DNA of 64,000 nt from a virus. How positions within the stretch are numbered: the stretch's first letter is position 1; every line of letters starts with the position of its first letter. The notes beneath the pieces are model-generated. The model had not been told where the DNA came from and made no database searches. It saw nothing but the letters and a program-made list of their open reading frames with translations. Below, one piece after another: positions 8,882-11,594 of this stretch. A program made the position numbers and the translations under genes. Where the stretch lies: IMG/VR virus record IMGVR_UViG_3300036791_001056, positions 32,001-96,000 of that record; one strand, given 5' to 3'.

Positions 8882-8955
8882 GCACGGGTCGAAGCTGACC
8901 GGTTATCAGATCACATCTGGCCAAGAAATACCGGGAAGCGCTCACGCATCTGTGC
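8882..8955 (+). ncRNA. Y-RNA-like RNA Y1 (minimal)
   Basis: GCACGGGT-(C)-G / C-ATCTGTGC helix; CCGGTTATC...CCGG. Confidence 0.75.
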
Positions 8956-8966
8956 CCAGACCTCAA

Positions 8967-9038
8967 GCGTGGGTCGAATGACCGCCGGTTATCATCACGT
9001 TAGTTATGTCCGGTGATCACGTACTGCTGCATCCACGT
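8967..9038 (+). ncRNA. Y-RNA-like RNA Y2 (minimal)
   Basis: GCGTGGGT-(C)-G / C-ATCCACGT; CCGGTTATC...CCGG. Confidence 0.75.
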
Positions 9039-9047
9039 CAGCGTCAC

Positions 9048-9126
9048 CCACAGGGTCGAAGACAGCTGGGTTATCTGCGCCAGCAGGTCACCGTCTAACC
9101 CAGTTGCCACCTACATCATCCTGTGG
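9048..9126 (+). ncRNA. Y-RNA-like RNA Y3 (minimal)
   Basis: CCACAGGGT-(C)-G / C-ATCCTGTGG; CTGGGTTA/TAACCCAG. Confidence 0.75.
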
Positions 9127-9132
9127 TAGAGT
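9122..9132 (+). promoter_or_regulatory. extended -10 promoter upstream of Y4-Y8 and Ro60
   Basis: TGTGG-TAGAGT 8 nt before Y4. Confidence 0.55.
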
Positions 9133-9140
9133 TACTTACA

Positions 9141-9205
9141 TGAGCGGGTCGATGCTCACCGGTTACCGGTAAAGTGATCCGGTGAGCGCTCAACTCATCC
9201 GCTCA
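9141..9205 (+). ncRNA. Y-RNA-like RNA Y4 (minimal)
   Basis: TGAGCGGGT-(C)-G / C-ATCCGCTCA; GCTCACCGG/CCGGTGAGC. Confidence 0.75.
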
Positions 9206-9264
9206 CGCCCGTCACGGTCTGGTACAACTGAATTAGACTTCACCCCCCAAGTTTGCGGCGTGGG

Positions 9265-9386
9265 CGCGGGTCGAACGTCAGCCGGTTATCTTTCTGCAAA
9301 AAGGAAACAGTAGGTTCGATTCTTATCAGTCTCTTCGGAGGCTGGGTATGGCACCAGTAAACCCGGTTGCGATCATCACATCCGCG
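9265..9386 (+). ncRNA. YrlA-like Y RNA Y5, permuted tRNA domain with GCA anticodon loop
   Basis: bulged-C helix; TCTTT-CTGCAAA-AAGGA; T arm; loop-closed acceptor CAGTCTC-TTCG-GAGGCTG. Confidence 0.8.
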
Positions 9387-9409
9387 GCTGCGCCGGAGGC
9401 TTGGGTGGT

Positions 9410-9545
9410 CTGGTGGGGCGAAGTCACGTCGGTTATCTCTTTTGGGAAGAGGTAGTGCAGGTTCGATTCCTGCTCGGCCAGCTCACTGGCCGATAGTGTA
9501 ACGGCAGCACGCTAAACGTCCGGCAGGCATCATCATCTCCACCAG
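9410..9545 (+). ncRNA. YrlA-like Y RNA Y6, permuted tRNA domain with TGG anticodon loop
   Basis: TCTCT-TTTGGGA-AGAGG; T arm; TCGGCCAG/CTGGCCGA; D arm. Confidence 0.8.
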
Positions 9546-9561
9546 GACCAGCCTCAGCTCG

Positions 9562-9683
9562 CAGAGCGGGCATGGGTCGACCACGTACCGGTTACCGAAG
9601 GTTCGACTCCTCCCGTCCCCACCTCACGGGGACGTGCCCTTGGGGGCACACCGGTTGTCATCACTACATCCGTGCCCGCTCTG
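9562..9683 (+). ncRNA. YrlA-like Y RNA Y7
   Basis: 16-bp terminal helix with bulged C; T arm; closed acceptor CGTCCCC/GGGGACG. Confidence 0.8.
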
Positions 9684-9706
9684 GAGGCTGAATACTTCTG
9701 ATGTGA

Positions 9707-9861
9707 CCTGACGGGTCGAAGTTGCGCCGGTTACCTTCATTTAATCTGGAAGTCGTGGGTTCGAGTCCCGCTCCTGGTCTGTTATCAGACTGGGATAGCT
9801 CAGTGGGTAGAGCACCAGACCGGCAACAGTCGCCGGTGCACGGCACCAAGCATCTGTCAGG
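9707..9861 (+). ncRNA. YrlA-like Y RNA Y8
   Basis: bulged-C helix; T arm, closed acceptor, D arm order; TCTGG/CCAGA anticodon-stem equivalent. Confidence 0.85.
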
Positions 9862-9881
9862 CCAGCACTTACATGCGAGAG

Positions 9882-9902
9882 CATCCGCCGTGAGGCGGGT
9901 CG
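9882..9902 (+). promoter_or_regulatory. candidate Ro60-binding operator hairpin in the Ro60 mRNA leader
   Basis: C-ATCCGCC-GTGA-GGCGGGT-(C)-G, 7 nt before SD-like GGGAGA. Confidence 0.55.
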
Positions 9903-9923
9903 ATCTGATGGGAGATGATCGTC

Positions 9924-11594
9924 ATGACGAGTCGTGACGCGCTCGCCGGGTTCAACCCGGCAGTCACGCCGCAGACCCAGCCAGCTCCGGGACGCACCGA
10001 CATGGTGAAGGGACCTGCTGGCGGGTACGGCTTCCAGAAGGACCGGTGGAACCAGCTCGAGGACTTCTTGATTCTCGGGACCACCGGCGGCAGCTACTAC
10101 CTCGGCCAGGACCAGCTGACTCAGCAGAACGTGAGCGTGGTCATCGAGCTAGCCAAGTCGCACGGTGCGCAGCTCGTGCAGCTCGTGGTTGAAATTTCAA
10201 CCTCAGTCCCACCGCGCGCTCCGAAGAACCGGGGATGCCTGTACGCGCTGGCTGCCGCATCAGCGTTCGGTGACCCAGCTGCTGTGCAGGCCGTCAAGGC
10301 GGCGCTGCCTCAAGTCGCGCGGACCACCGATCACCTGGCTGCGTTCTTCGGCTACCGCAAGCTGCTGAAGAGCAAGACCACCGCGCGTGGGACGTCACCG
10401 GTCGCTGGTCGCGCCTACCGCTCGGCGCTCGCTGCGTGGTTCACGGCGAGCGACGTCAATGACGTCGCGTTCCGGGCCTGCAAGGCCCGCCAGCGGAAGA
10501 CTCCGGCCGGCGAGGCGTTCGACCTGCGGGACGCGATCCGCATGGCGCACCCGGCGAGCGACACGCCCGAGCGGCAGCTGCTCTTCCGGTGGCTGGCCGG
10601 CAAGGCCGATGACGCAGAGGCAGCGCGGGTGCTGCCGGCGGTTGACAACTTCATCACGGCGCAGGCCGTGAAGACTCCGGCTGAGGCGATCCGCGTGGTT
10701 ACCGACCGGCGCGTTCCCTGGGAGTTCTTGCCCTCCGCTGTCCTCGCAGACAGGGGGGTGTGGGAGGCGCTCACCGAGACCATCGGCGTGACAGCGCTGA
10801 TCCGGAACCTGGCGCGAATGACCCGCATCGGGACTCTCGCTCCATTCGCCGCGGCCAACGTTACGGTGATCCGGCGGCTCACCAGCGCAGAGGCACTGGC
10901 GAGGGGGCGCATTCACCCGATGGACGTGTACCTCGCGCTGCGGGTCTACGCGGCCGGCACTAGCCAGCCGAATCCCAAGGCTGAGCGCTCCACCTGGACT
11001 CCGGTCCCGGAGATCCTCGATGCGCTCGAGGTCGCGTACGACCTCAGCCACGGCCACGTGCAGCCGTCAGGTAAGAAGTTCGTCCTCGCGGTAGACTCAT
11101 CAGGCTCGATGACGTATGGCCACGTGTCATTCACCGGTGCTAACCTGGGTCAGGCATATCACGTCGCATCAGCCATCGCTACGATGATTAAGCGCATTGA
11201 AGGCGCGAACGTCCACGTCGTTGATGTAGACACGGCAGTCCGGAACTCACGGATCACCCCACGCACCAACCTGCGCGAGATCTCATCGTGGCGAGCTAGT
11301 GGCGGAGGCACTGACCTCTCGCTGCCCATGACGTACGCGATGCAGTACGATCTCCGGGTCGACGGCTTCGCGCTGCTCACGGACAACGCGACGTGGGCCG
11401 GGCACATTCACCCATTCCAGGCGCTCGAGCAGTACCGCCAGCGGTACAACCCCGGCGCGCGGTTCGTGGACATCAGCATGGTGCCTTCCGGGTTCAGCGT
11501 CGCTGATCCCAAGCATGAGGGCGTGATCAACATGACCGGGATGGACGCGTCACTGCCCGTGGCGCTGGCCGGGTACCTCCGTGCTGCGGGGTGA
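9924..11594 (+). CDS. rsr: Ro60/TROVE-domain RNA-binding protein (Rsr-like)
   Basis: AGGYGF, FLILGTTGGSYY, VPWEFLP, ALIRNLARMT, RIHPMDV; vWA MIDAS DSSGSM, GGGTD, LLTDN. Confidence 0.95.
   Translation: MTSRDALAGFNPAVTPQTQPAPGRTDMVKGPAGGYGFQKDRWNQLEDFLILGTTGGSYYLGQDQLTQQNVSVVIELAKSHGAQLVQLVVEISTSVPPRAPKNRGCLYALAAASAFGDPAAVQAVKAALPQVARTTDHLAAFFGYRKLLKSKTTARGTSPVAGRAYRSALAAWFTASDVNDVAFRACKARQRKTPAGEAFDLRDAIRMAHPASDTPERQLLFRWLAGKADDAEAARVLPAVDNFITAQAVKTPAEAIRVVTDRRVPWEFLPSAVLADRGVWEALTETIGVTALIRNLARMTRIGTLAPFAAANVTVIRRLTSAEALARGRIHPMDVYLALRVYAAGTSQPNPKAERSTWTPVPEILDALEVAYDLSHGHVQPSGKKFVLAVDSSGSMTYGHVSFTGANLGQAYHVASAIATMIKRIEGANVHVVDVDTAVRNSRITPRTNLREISSWRASGGGTDLSLPMTYAMQYDLRVDGFALLTDNATWAGHIHPFQALEQYRQRYNPGARFVDISMVPSGFSVADPKHEGVINMTGMDASLPVALAGYLRAAG

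What the first reader, a model, noticed from the sequence alone, without database searches (positions are those of the whole stretch)
8882..11594. Phage Ro60 gene preceded by a tandem array of eight modular Y RNAs
Seen: eight consecutive units of 65-155 nt lie directly upstream of an intact TROVE+vWA gene. Each has a terminal helix whose outer sequence differs between copies while pairing is kept, a conserved GGGT-(bulged C)-GA / CATC core (variant in Y6), a pyrimidine/CA-rich internal loop, and a second helix carrying (CC)GGTTA(T/C)C. The cargo domains differ: Y1-Y4 minimal, Y5-Y8 circularly permuted tRNA mimics. Known: Ro60/Rsr binds a bulged-C helix in Y RNAs, bacterial YrlA RNAs carry a permuted tRNA-like domain, and typical loci hold only a few Y RNAs. 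Inference: one phage Ro60 is loaded with a panel of interchangeable RNA modules, acting as decoys, tethers to PNPase or other effectors, or protectors of the adjacent phage tRNA pool.
Basis: partly seen in the sequence, partly recalled or inferred. Interest (0 to 1): 0.93.

Follow-up and report, generated by a model that had tools for sequence, protein, structure and literature searches.

The report
Phage Ro60 with nine Y RNAs
An uncultured 147-kb soil phage encodes the RNA-binding ring protein Ro60 and, in front of it and inside its tRNA gene cluster, nine small RNAs that share one Ro60-type "handle" but carry different add-on domains; this is the largest such set I found, although sets of two to seven are the rule in related phages and bacteria.

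Summary
Eight units at 8882-9861 lie directly 5' of an intact Ro60 gene (9924-11594). Each has a terminal helix GGGU(C)G / CAUC with covarying outer pairs, an internal loop, and a CCGG/CCGG second helix followed by UUAYC. Four are minimal (65-79 nt). Four carry a T arm and an acceptor-like hairpin, and only Y6 and Y8 also keep a D arm.

I add three things:
- A ninth copy (4398-4529) inside the tRNA array, with D and T arms in normal tRNA order.
- A phage promoter motif at the Y3/Y4 junction.
- A conserved hairpin in the Ro60 leader that repeats the Ro60-binding helix just before the ribosome-binding site, which suggests autoregulation.

A model built from the nine copies finds nothing else in the phage genome. 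In 110 other Ro60 loci, almost every locus with 5' flank has 1-7 copies, always upstream on the Ro60 strand. Bacteria typically have one short plus three long units, and related phages have 4-7.

This is therefore the known Ro60/Y RNA (YrlA/YrlB) module in an expanded form, not a new kind. Expression, Ro60 binding and function are untested. Earlier notes of this scan describe similar multi-RNA arrays beside Ro60-like genes in other phages.

The parts
4398..4529 (+). Y0, the ninth Y-like RNA. It lies between tRNA-Gly(ccc) and tRNA-Gly(gcc). Its cargo is a hairpin, a D arm, a 5-bp stem with a tetraloop, then a T arm, which is normal tRNA order and not permuted.
   Evidence: R1 scores 79.1 bits. 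The fold has z = -4.0. A homologue with the same D-then-T order lies at L004:3533-3676, with 5 compensatory pairs.
8882..8955 (+). Y1, a minimal unit that starts 9 nt after tRNA-Cys (8802-8873).
   Evidence: 56.2 bits; z -2.6
8968..9037 (+). Y2, a minimal unit.
   Evidence: 51.9 bits. The fold is not better than shuffles (z -0.25), but the architecture and motifs are shared.
9048..9126 (+). Y3, a minimal unit. Its second helix is CUGGG/CCCAG, a compensated variant of CCGG/CCGG.
   Evidence: 53.4 bits; z -4.2
9104..9132 (+). Promoter-like site lying within the 3' half of Y3 and running 6 nt past its end: TTGCCA, 17 nt, TAGAGT (14 nt to the extended -10 TGGTAGAGT). The predicted start is about 9139-9141, which is the first base of Y4.
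   Evidence: The 9-mer TGGTAKAGT recurs about 10 times, all on the + strand and ahead of genes or tRNA blocks, with similar -35 and downstream TACTTACA. This is a consensus match only.
9141..9205 (+). Y4, a minimal unit with a 9-bp second helix.
   Evidence: 50.1 bits; z -5.3
9257..9394 (+). Y5, with a T arm, an acceptor-like hairpin and a degenerate D position.
   Evidence: 95.5 bits; z -3.3
9404..9552 (+). Y6, a YrlA-type unit with V hairpin, T arm, acceptor-like hairpin and D arm. Its core variant is GGGG(C)G paired with UCUC.
   Evidence: Rfam YrlA scores 24.4 bits, below threshold. R1 scores 91.5 bits. The fold has z = -4.6. ARAGORN's 'tRNA-Pro' at 9406-9482 is this unit's 5' half (Rfam tRNA 22.2 bits against a threshold of 29).
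9562..9683 (+). Y7, with a weak T arm and two hairpins. Its 16-bp terminal helix can extend to 9555-9690.
   Evidence: 75.7 bits; z -5.2
9707..9861 (+). Y8, the most complete YrlA-type unit, with T arm, 10-bp acceptor-like hairpin and D arm.
   Evidence: Rfam YrlA scores 41.6 bits, E 2e-7, below the 69-bit threshold. R1 scores 77.9 bits. The fold has z = -3.1. The consensus fold with 13 homologues is.
9882..9903 (+). Ro60 leader hairpin, CAUCCGCC-GUGA-GGCGGGU(C)GA. This is the Ro60-binding helix closed at its outer end. The GGGAG ribosome-binding site at 9910-9914 follows 6 nt later.
   Evidence: R2 scores 36.1 bits here and hits nowhere else in the window. The same element is found in 60 of 80 (model) or 52 of 80 (pairing rule) bacterial loci.
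9924..11594 (+). Ro60 (Rsr) gene with a TROVE ring and a vWA domain. The MIDAS motif DSSGS is present.
11605..11634 (+). A 13-14-bp hairpin 10 nt after the Ro60 stop codon with no U tract. It is a possible end of the transcription unit.
   Evidence: -28.9 kcal/mol, z -4.7. The consensus terminator scan did not call it.

Best explanation
These are nine genes for Y RNAs, the small RNA partners of Ro60, belonging to the actinobacterial YrlA/YrlB kind and serving the phage's own Ro60.

Shared handle. All nine have the same handle:
- A terminal helix made from the 5' and 3' ends. It contains an invariant G-U, a U-A, a bulged C and a G-C, and is read as GGGU(C)GAAG on one strand and ACAUCC on the other.
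- An asymmetric CA/pyrimidine-rich loop.
- A CCGG/CCGG helix followed by UUAYC.

Cargo. The handle carries one of three cargo classes: a small hairpin (Y1-Y4), a permuted tRNA-like domain (Y5-Y8, complete in Y6 and Y8), or a tRNA-like domain in normal order (Y0).

Inferred expression:
- Y0 and Y1-Y3 are made as part of the tRNA operon and released by the tRNA-processing nucleases, because Y units abut tRNA genes.
- Y4-Y8 and the Ro60 mRNA come from a phage promoter embedded in the 3' half of Y3.

Inferred function:
- The handle docks on the outside of the Ro60 ring, as in the Xenopus Ro60/Y RNA structure.
- The cargo decides what the particle meets. My preferred reading is that the cargos are adaptors or gates coupling Ro60 to host enzymes that handle structured RNA, with PNPase the documented case. 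That would give a surveillance or decay particle tied to the phage's very large tRNA output.
- Free Ro60 probably also binds the look-alike hairpin in its own leader and limits its own translation.

Confidence by step: about 0.85 that these are Ro60-partner Y RNAs, about 0.4 for the adaptor/PNPase function, and about 0.4 for autoregulation.
For: - Motifs, folds and covariation among the nine paralogs.
- Model R1, built from the nine copies, finds exactly these nine in the 147-kb genome, all on the + strand.
- In 30 metagenomic and viral Ro60 loci R1 gives 84 hits beyond the window's own nine. In 80 genomes, almost all Streptosporangiales, it gives 203 more. Every hit is on the Ro60 strand and 5' of the gene.
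- In five complete bacterial genomes the hits are 2 to 7 per genome in tight same-strand clusters. Four genomes have them only at the Ro60 locus; the fifth has a second cluster of two that I did not examine.
- On 79 aligned homologues 91.3% of cells pair and 18 of 20 pairs show compensatory change. Slid controls give 32-45%. That alignment was fitted to the model.
- An independent RNAalifold run on 14 long units recovers helix 1, helix 2, the T arm, the acceptor-like hairpin and the D arm, with 21 of 31 pairs compensated.
- The GNCGAAN0-1G motif of Chen et al. 2014 (PMC4201824) is present in 7 of 9 copies.
- Rfam YrlA is the best non-tRNA family for Y8 and Y6.
- Y units abut tRNA genes by 0-9 nt here and in related phages. 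Examples: L004 tRNA-Glu ends at 5469 and a Y unit starts at 5469; L002 tRNA-Cys ends at 7336 and a Y unit starts at 7337; L019 shows 2278 and 2279.
- Promoter motif family.
- Leader hairpin conserved with the same core sequence.
- A phage Ro60 binding two upstream Y-like RNAs and host PNPase has been shown for Thermus phage phiLo (PMC12135203).
Against: - There are no expression, end-mapping or binding data. The phage is uncultured.
- Rfam YrlA scores are far below the gathering score, and Rfam aligns its first stem to helix 2, not to the handle. No hit to metazoan Y_RNA appeared at E up to 10.
- Y2 does not fold better than shuffled sequence.
- R1 was trained on the window's own copies, and alignment A3 is fitted to it, so the pair counts lean toward the model.
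- The phage encodes no RtcB, no Rnl-type ligase and no CCA-adding enzyme, so any partner enzyme must come from the host. No PNPase-binding feature could be recognised in the cargos.
- The promoter and the terminator-like hairpin are consensus or energy matches only.
Confidence: 0.75

Rival explanations
1. The units are not separate RNAs but one long structured leader of the Ro60 mRNA. In this reading they form a row of Ro60-binding sites in cis that sets Ro60 synthesis or mRNA stability.
For: The array, the leader hairpin and the gene lie on one strand with no terminator between them. The promoter motif at 9124 would place Y4-Y8 and Ro60 on one transcript. The last element, the leader hairpin, clearly belongs to the mRNA.
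Against: - Copies also sit far from Ro60, flush between tRNA genes, where they cannot be a leader: Y0 here, and L004 at 2788, 3533 and 5469.
- In M. smegmatis the homologous YrlA is a discrete RNA bound by Rsr (PMC4201824).
- The closed terminal helices with 9-23-nt spacers look like separate genes.
Confidence: 0.1
2. The tRNA-like units act independently of Ro60 as decoys or sponges for host tRNA-targeting nucleases or tRNA-modifying enzymes, protecting the phage's roughly 40 tRNAs. Their position next to Ro60 is only inherited.
For: - T and D arms are conserved in Y6, Y8 and Y0.
- The units are embedded in the tRNA array.
- In four of the five cultured Ro60 phages inspected, tRNA genes lie within about 1 kb of the Ro60 gene; in ET08 the nearest annotated tRNA is about 2.8 kb away.
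- YrlA is a substrate of tRNA enzymes (PMC4201824).
Against: - Five of the nine units lack a full tRNA-like domain yet keep the handle, which is the most conserved part.
- The handle is what co-occurs with Ro60 in every locus.
- A decoy needs no Ro60-type bulged helix.
Confidence: 0.1
3. The units are decaying tRNA duplicates or repeat debris with no function.
For: ARAGORN calls part of Y6 a tRNA. Y2 folds no better than chance. Cargo sequences evolve fast.
Against: Compensatory changes preserve both helices in 79 homologues from phages and bacteria. The placement is strictly strand- and gene-specific. The core nucleotides are invariant.
Confidence: 0.03

Closest known systems
Actinobacterial Rsr (Ro60) with YrlA/YrlB Y RNAs (M. 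smegmatis, Streptosporangium roseum and others; Chen et al. 2014, PMC4201824; Rfam RF02553)
   Same: - Encoded 5' of Ro60 on the same strand.
- Carry the GNCGAA(N)G motif.
- The long form has T arm, acceptor-like hairpin and D arm in permuted order, and a shorter companion RNA is present.
- The phage Ro60 is 55-62% identical to Streptosporangiales proteins and nests among them in a quick tree.
- The handle is identical in 80 such genomes.
   Different: - Nine copies, against the usual 1-5 per locus.
- Four minimal units instead of one.
- One unit has the tRNA-like domain in normal order.
- Units are spliced into a tRNA operon.
- All units score below Rfam's threshold.
Thermus phage phiLo Ro60 with Yrl1 and Yrl2 (NAR 2025, PMC12135203)
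   Same: A phage-encoded Ro60 with Y-like RNAs directly upstream, identified by a CGAA motif in a stem-bulge-stem fold. For phiLo, binding to Ro60 and to host PNPase was shown in vitro.
   Different: phiLo has two RNAs, not nine, with no tRNA-like cargo described and no tRNA array. No PDB chain from phiLo appeared among the sequence matches at E up to 0.001, so the proteins are distant.
Cluster C mycobacteriophages (Bxz1/ET08) and other cultured actinophages with 'Ro-like RNA binding protein'
   Same: These are large tRNA-rich phages. R1 finds Y-like units next to Ro60: ET08 has three adjacent (60.3, 37.5 and 28.7 bits), Sparky two, BlueNGold four among its tRNAs, and Comrade one.
   Different: Their Ro60 is only 30-37% identical and forms a separate clade. 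They have fewer units and no recognisable GGGUCGAA leader hairpin in ET08 or Sparky.
Vertebrate Y RNAs (four in humans) with Ro60
   Same: - Several RNAs share one Ro60-binding stem with a bulged C and differ in the loop or cargo.
- The human Y4 5' end, ...GGUCCGAUGGUAGUGGGUUAUCAG (PMC7012775), has the same CGA-N8-GGUUAUC spacing as window Y1.
   Different: No Rfam Y_RNA match. The pair before the bulge is C-G in vertebrates and U-A here. Vertebrate Y RNAs have no tRNA-like cargo. Homology of the GGUUAUC element was not tested.
Deinococcus radiodurans Yrn1 and the Ro60-Y RNA-PNPase (RYPER) machine
   Same: Functional analogy: a Y RNA tethers Ro60 to PNPase for decay of structured RNA. According to Chen et al. 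2014 the T and D arms of Yrn1 are oriented differently from those of YrlA, and the same is true of Y0 here.
   Different: No sequence relation was tested and no PNPase-binding element was identified here. This is an analogy, not membership.

Membership tests
Ro60 / Rsr protein | TROVE HEAT-repeat ring followed by a vWA domain with a MIDAS motif | tested here: met
   Pfam vWA_Ro60 at 9.1e-35 and TROVE at 3.8e-18. Full-length matches to 2NVO (1.8e-71), 1YVP (2.8e-62) and human RO60 9NEN. DSSGS is read in the sequence at about 11091-11105.
Y RNA (general definition) | 5' and 3' ends pair into a long stem that holds the Ro60 site with a bulged nucleotide, followed by a large internal loop | tested here: met
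   Present in 9 of 9 units. Covariation is shown.
Y RNA (general definition) | Bound by Ro60 in vivo or in vitro | not testable with these tools
   This needs RIP-seq or EMSA.
Y RNA (general definition) | Encoded beside the Ro60 gene on the same strand (the bacterial and phage rule of Chen et al. 2014) | tested here: met
   Eight units lie within 1.05 kb 5' of the gene and the ninth is 5.4 kb upstream. All homologues are 5' and on the same strand.
Metazoan Y_RNA (Rfam RF00019) | Match to the covariance model | tested here: not met
   No hit at E up to 10 in 8300-10000.
YrlA (Rfam RF02553) | Score at or above the curated gathering score (69 bits) | tested here: not met
   Y8 scores 41.6 bits and Y6 24.4 bits. 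The others give no hit.
YrlA (Rfam RF02553) | GNCGAAN0-1G motif in the 5' strand | tested here: met
   Present in 7 of 9 units. Y4 has GUCGAUG and Y7 has GUCGACC.
YrlA (Rfam RF02553) | Permuted tRNA-like domain: T arm, acceptor-like stem-loop, D arm | tested here: inconclusive
   Complete in Y6 and Y8. Y5 and Y7 have the T arm and hairpin only. It is absent in Y1-Y4 and in normal order in Y0.
YrlA (Rfam RF02553) | tRNA-type modifications, RNase P cleavage and CCA addition | not testable with these tools
   Shown experimentally for Salmonella and M. smegmatis YrlA only (PMC4201824).
Autoregulatory mRNA mimic of a protein's RNA ligand (ribosomal-protein-operon type) | The leader carries a structural copy of the protein's normal RNA site, overlapping or abutting the ribosome-binding site | tested here: met
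   The same core (ACAUCC / GGGU(C)GAA) sits 5-9 nt before the SD in the six leaders read base by base. In the 52 loci that meet the pairing rule, the motif ends a median 20 nt (13-31) before the start of the protein match. It is conserved in 52-60 of 80 bacterial loci and in 18 of the 26 metagenomic and viral loci inspected, the window among them.
Autoregulatory mRNA mimic of a protein's RNA ligand (ribosomal-protein-operon type) | The protein binds the leader and represses its own translation | not testable with these tools
   This needs a reporter assay, toeprinting or EMSA.

The most novel reading that the evidence does not exclude
Ro60 controls its own synthesis through a Y-RNA mimic. The hairpin just before the ribosome-binding site of the Ro60 mRNA copies the Ro60-binding helix, including the bulged C and CGAA. 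It is present in this phage, its relatives and most Streptosporangiales.

Under this reading, Ro60 that is not occupied by Y RNA would shut off its own translation. The nine Y RNAs would then both set the level of Ro60 and direct one protein to several different partners through their interchangeable cargos. I found no description of such a leader element in the papers I could search.
Probability: 0.35. Interest if true: 0.72.

Novelty: new variant of a known kind. Interest (0 to 1): 0.58.

Why it matters
What the variable part of a Y RNA does, and how one Ro60 protein is directed to different tasks, has been open since Y RNAs were found. Here nature supplies a panel of nine RNAs with one constant handle and three classes of cargo, all serving a single Ro60 in a small genome. 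That makes cargo-swap, pull-down and binding experiments straightforward.

The survey also shows three things:
- Tandem Y RNA arrays of three to five are normal in one actinobacterial order.
- Phages splice Y RNAs into tRNA operons as if they were tRNA genes.
- Current annotation misses them. Rfam scores them below threshold, ARAGORN calls one a tRNA, and a protein gene is annotated over them in phage ET08.

The conserved leader hairpin offers a simple, testable feedback loop for Ro60 levels.

Tried and rejected
- Megablast and blastn of the region against 50,697 phage records found no relatives. A first scan of viral contigs with the single protein also found nothing. Relatives came only from an alignment-based scan.
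Whole-record counts for L002 were not possible.
- Rfam at gathering threshold found only tRNAs.
- The Wolin reviews of 2018, 2019 and 2020 and the supplementary tables of Chen et al. 2014 are not held. I therefore could not check the highest copy number already in print.
- Coding explanation rejected. The ORFs that overlap the array (8708-9016 +, 8373-8966 -, 9664-9849 -, 9722-9937 +) have no Pfam match, and the longest one runs across two or three tRNA genes.
- RNA-repair-platform reading. The phage has no RtcB, no Rnl-type ligase and no CCA-adding enzyme, so I did not adopt it.
- The 'ninth copy' at 9897 is not a Y RNA. It lacks the second helix and cargo and is the leader hairpin.
- The careful phylogeny did not finish in the time allowed. 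Only the quick tree is used.

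
Full report
WHAT IS THERE. The window is bases 32001-96000 of a single 146,953-bp virus record, which earlier notes of this scan describe as an uncultured soil phage. About 40 tRNA genes fill 1014-8873 on the + strand. They are followed by the stretch in question and then by a 556-codon gene.

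That gene is a Ro60. Pfam finds the Ro60 vWA domain (9e-35) and TROVE. It aligns over its full length with D. radiodurans Rsr (2NVO, 1.8e-71), Xenopus Ro60 (1YVP) and human RO60. The MIDAS DSSGS motif is present. ATG 9924 is the likely start, because GGGAG lies 9 nt upstream and homologues start M-x-R-D.

THE EIGHT UNITS. Reading and folding the sequence gives eight closed units at 8882-8955, 8968-9037, 9048-9126, 9141-9205, 9257-9394, 9404-9552, 9562-9683 and 9707-9861. They are separated by 2-23 nt, with one 51-nt gap.

Each unit has, in order:
- A terminal helix of 8-18 pairs whose inner end reads GGGU(C)G on the 5' strand and CAUC on the 3' strand.
- An asymmetric loop (AAG... on one side, a CA/pyrimidine-rich run on the other).
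- A second helix built on CCGG/CCGG.
- UUAYC.
- A variable cargo.

The combined motif occurs at nine true sites in the genome, plus two strays. Shuffles give 4.6 per genome, so eight sites within 830 nt are not chance. Among the nine paralogs the outer helix pairs change freely but stay paired: 80.9% of cells pair, 12 of 20 pairs carry compensatory changes, and 0 of 500 shuffles reach this. Even the core pairs are compensated, U-A to G-C in Y6 and G-C to A-U in Y0. Seven of the eight array units fold better than shuffled sequence (z -2.6 to -5.3). Y2 does not (z -0.25).

CARGO. Y1-Y4 carry only a small hairpin. Y5-Y8 carry a T arm followed by a closed acceptor-like hairpin. Y6 and Y8 then have a recognisable D arm, which is the permuted tRNA-like layout of YrlA, while Y5 and Y7 have a plain hairpin there.

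Rfam's YrlA model is the best non-tRNA family for Y8 (41.6 bits) and Y6 (24.4 bits), but both are well under the 69-bit threshold. The model's first stem was aligned to helix 2, not to the handle. ARAGORN's 'tRNA-Pro' at 9406-9482 is the 5' half of Y6.

A NINTH COPY. The motif search and a covariance model built from the units (R1) find one more copy at 4398-4529, flush between tRNA-Gly(ccc) and tRNA-Gly(gcc). It has the same handle, but its cargo runs hairpin, D arm, short stem with tetraloop, T arm, which is normal tRNA order. R1 finds exactly these nine in the whole phage genome, all on the + strand. A homologue with the same order lies in a related phage contig (L004:3533-3676), with five compensated pairs.

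RELATIVES. No close relative exists among 50,697 phage records. Protein searches give Ro60 proteins of 60-75% identity from soil metagenomes and about 58% from Nonomuraea, Actinomadura and Streptosporangium. I fetched 30 metagenomic or viral loci and 80 bacterial loci.

R1 gives 84 hits in the first set beyond the window's own nine (93 in all) and 203 in the second. Every hit is on the Ro60 strand and 5' of the gene, although both strands and the downstream flanks were searched. In five complete bacterial genomes the hits number 2 to 7 per genome and lie in tight same-strand clusters. In four genomes these are all at the Ro60 locus, and one genome has a second cluster of two that I did not examine.

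On 79 aligned homologues 91.3% of cells pair and 18 of 20 pairs are compensated, against 32-45% for slid controls. That alignment is fitted to the model. RNAalifold on 14 long units independently recovers both helices, the T arm, the acceptor-like hairpin and the D arm. The RNA family is therefore real and tied to Ro60.

HOW UNUSUAL IS NINE? Copy numbers found with R1:
- Bacterial loci: mean 2.5. The usual full pattern is one short plus three long units. The maximum is five in a locus, and one genome has seven in total.
- Four contigs that are clearly the same phage type, with syntenic tRNA arrays ending in tRNA-Arg(ccg) and tRNA-Cys: 4, 5, about 7 and 4 copies, several of them scattered among tRNA genes.
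- Cultured actinophages: ET08 three adjacent, Sparky two, BlueNGold four among its tRNAs, Comrade one.

The window therefore holds the largest set I saw, about twice the bacterial norm, but it is the upper end of a continuum. Published phage cases have one or two: Chen et al. 2014 report 355 YrlAs in 254 bacteria and 22 phages, and phage phiLo has Yrl1 and Yrl2 (PMC12135203). I could not read the reviews that might give a higher figure. Earlier AI notes of this scan report similar arrays of four, six and eight RNAs beside Ro60-like genes in unrelated phages.

ORIGIN. In a quick tree the window's Ro60 groups with three of the tRNA-array phages (support 99). This group lies inside a set of eight (support 95) that sits among Thermomonosporaceae and Streptosporangiaceae proteins, far from the cultured-actinophage clade (unrooted, so no direction is claimed). 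The module therefore looks like a separate capture or exchange with Streptosporangiales-type hosts.

EXPRESSION (INFERRED). Y units abut tRNA genes by 0-9 nt here and in the related phages, as if they were matured by the tRNA-processing nucleases.

A sigma-70-like site lies within the 3' half of Y3 and just past it: TTGCCA, 17 nt, TAGAGT, preceded by TGG (9104-9132). It would start transcription at about 9140, one base before Y4. The extended -10 TGGTAKAGT, with similar flanks, recurs about ten times, only on the + strand and ahead of genes or tRNA blocks. A 13-14-bp hairpin follows the Ro60 stop codon. The likely picture is that Y0 and Y1-Y3 ride on the tRNA operon, and Y4-Y8 plus Ro60 form a second unit.

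THE LEADER HAIRPIN. At 9882-9903, six bases before the ribosome-binding site, the RNA can form CAUCCGCC-GUGA-GGCGGGU(C)GA. This is the handle's helix with the same core, but closed at the outer end.

The same element sits in the same place in 18 of the 26 metagenomic and viral loci inspected, the window among them, with compensated variants: AUUCGCC/GGCGAGU, CAUCCGGC/GCCGGGU and CCUAUC/GAUGGGU. A model of it (R2) hits once per locus in 60 of 80 bacterial loci, always ending at the Ro60 start, and nowhere else in 670 kb. R2 includes the first codons, which inflates the scores. A plain pairing rule therefore serves as a check: it finds the element in 52 of 80 loci and in 0 of 80 control segments. 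Genome-wide, the top hits in three of five complete genomes are at Ro60, but only 150 candidates per genome were scored. Streptomyces BE-type phages have an analogous GCCC-loop-GGGC(C)GAAAGGA.

I read this as a Y-RNA mimic through which Ro60 limits its own translation. A 5' stabiliser hairpin is the alternative. I found no paper describing it, within a limited library.

FUNCTION. The phage has no RtcB, Rnl-type ligase or CCA-adding enzyme, so a self-contained RNA-repair platform is not supported. Any partner must come from the host. By analogy with D. radiodurans and phage phiLo, where Y RNA links Ro60 to PNPase, and given the physical union with the tRNA operon here and the tRNA genes near Ro60 in the cultured Ro60 phages inspected, I favour the following. 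The cargos act as adaptors or gates for a Ro60 particle that works on structured, tRNA-type RNAs during infection. This step is inference, at about 0.4.

VERDICT. The identity as Y RNAs is well supported by comparative evidence, and the functional reading is open. This is an expanded, tRNA-operon-embedded variant of a known module. The conserved leader mimic is the most novel lead.

Noticed in passing
window 9882-9914; also L001, L003-L006, L008, L016, L018, L019, L021-L023, L027-L030 and 52-60 of L044-L123: A conserved hairpin in the Ro60 mRNA leader repeats the Ro60-binding helix (ACAUCC.../...GGGU(C)GAA) 5-9 nt before the ribosome-binding site. It is a candidate autoregulatory Y-RNA mimic.
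   Followed up: partly
window 851, 6813, 9124, 11791, 22085, 37970, 39812, 45236, 47324, 55113 (+ strand): A family of extended -10 promoter-like sites, TGGTAKAGT (or TGGTATAAT), often with TTGCCA or TTTACA at -35 and TACTTACA downstream. All lie on the transcribed strand, ahead of genes or tRNA blocks.
   Followed up: partly
window 9406-9482: ARAGORN's tRNA-Pro(tgg) is a false call on the 5' half of Y6. Rfam tRNA scores only 22.2 bits against a threshold of 29.
   Followed up: yes
L039 (Mycobacterium phage ET08, record 128058-128409): Three Y-like hits lie just 5' of the Ro gene. Two of them overlap the annotated hypothetical CDS gp219 (128259-128432), which may therefore be a mis-annotation. 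Weaker hits lie at record 92485, 93413 and 97425.
   Followed up: no
window 8888-8906 against the human Y4 RNA 5' end (PMC7012775): Human Y4 (GGUCCGA-UGGUAGUG-GGUUAUCAG) and window Y1 (GGGUCGA-AGCUGACC-GGUUAUCAG) share CGA, an 8-nt spacer and GGUUAUCAG. This may be an ancient Y RNA element or a coincidence.
   Followed up: no
L042 (Gordonia phage BlueNGold, record 88669-89152): Y-like hits are interleaved with tRNA genes and a tmRNA gene 3' of the Ro gene, and one more lies 5' of it. In this phage the Y units lie mostly downstream of Ro60.
   Followed up: no
window 8085-8195 and 7690-7815: tRNA-shaped sequences with long insertions that ARAGORN does not call. One contains CCGGTTACC but has no GNCGA handle. 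An earlier finding on this window covers them.
   Followed up: no
G006 (Spirillospora sp., chromosome 7079282-7079341): A second strong hit of the leader-hairpin model (40.9 bits) lies far from the Ro60 locus I fetched, possibly at a second TROVE gene.
   Followed up: no
window 11831-12832 and 19237-19830: The gene after Ro60 encodes a DUF932 protein (2.8e-36) with its own promoter-like site. A protein with sigma-70 region 4 lies 7.6 kb downstream.
   Followed up: no
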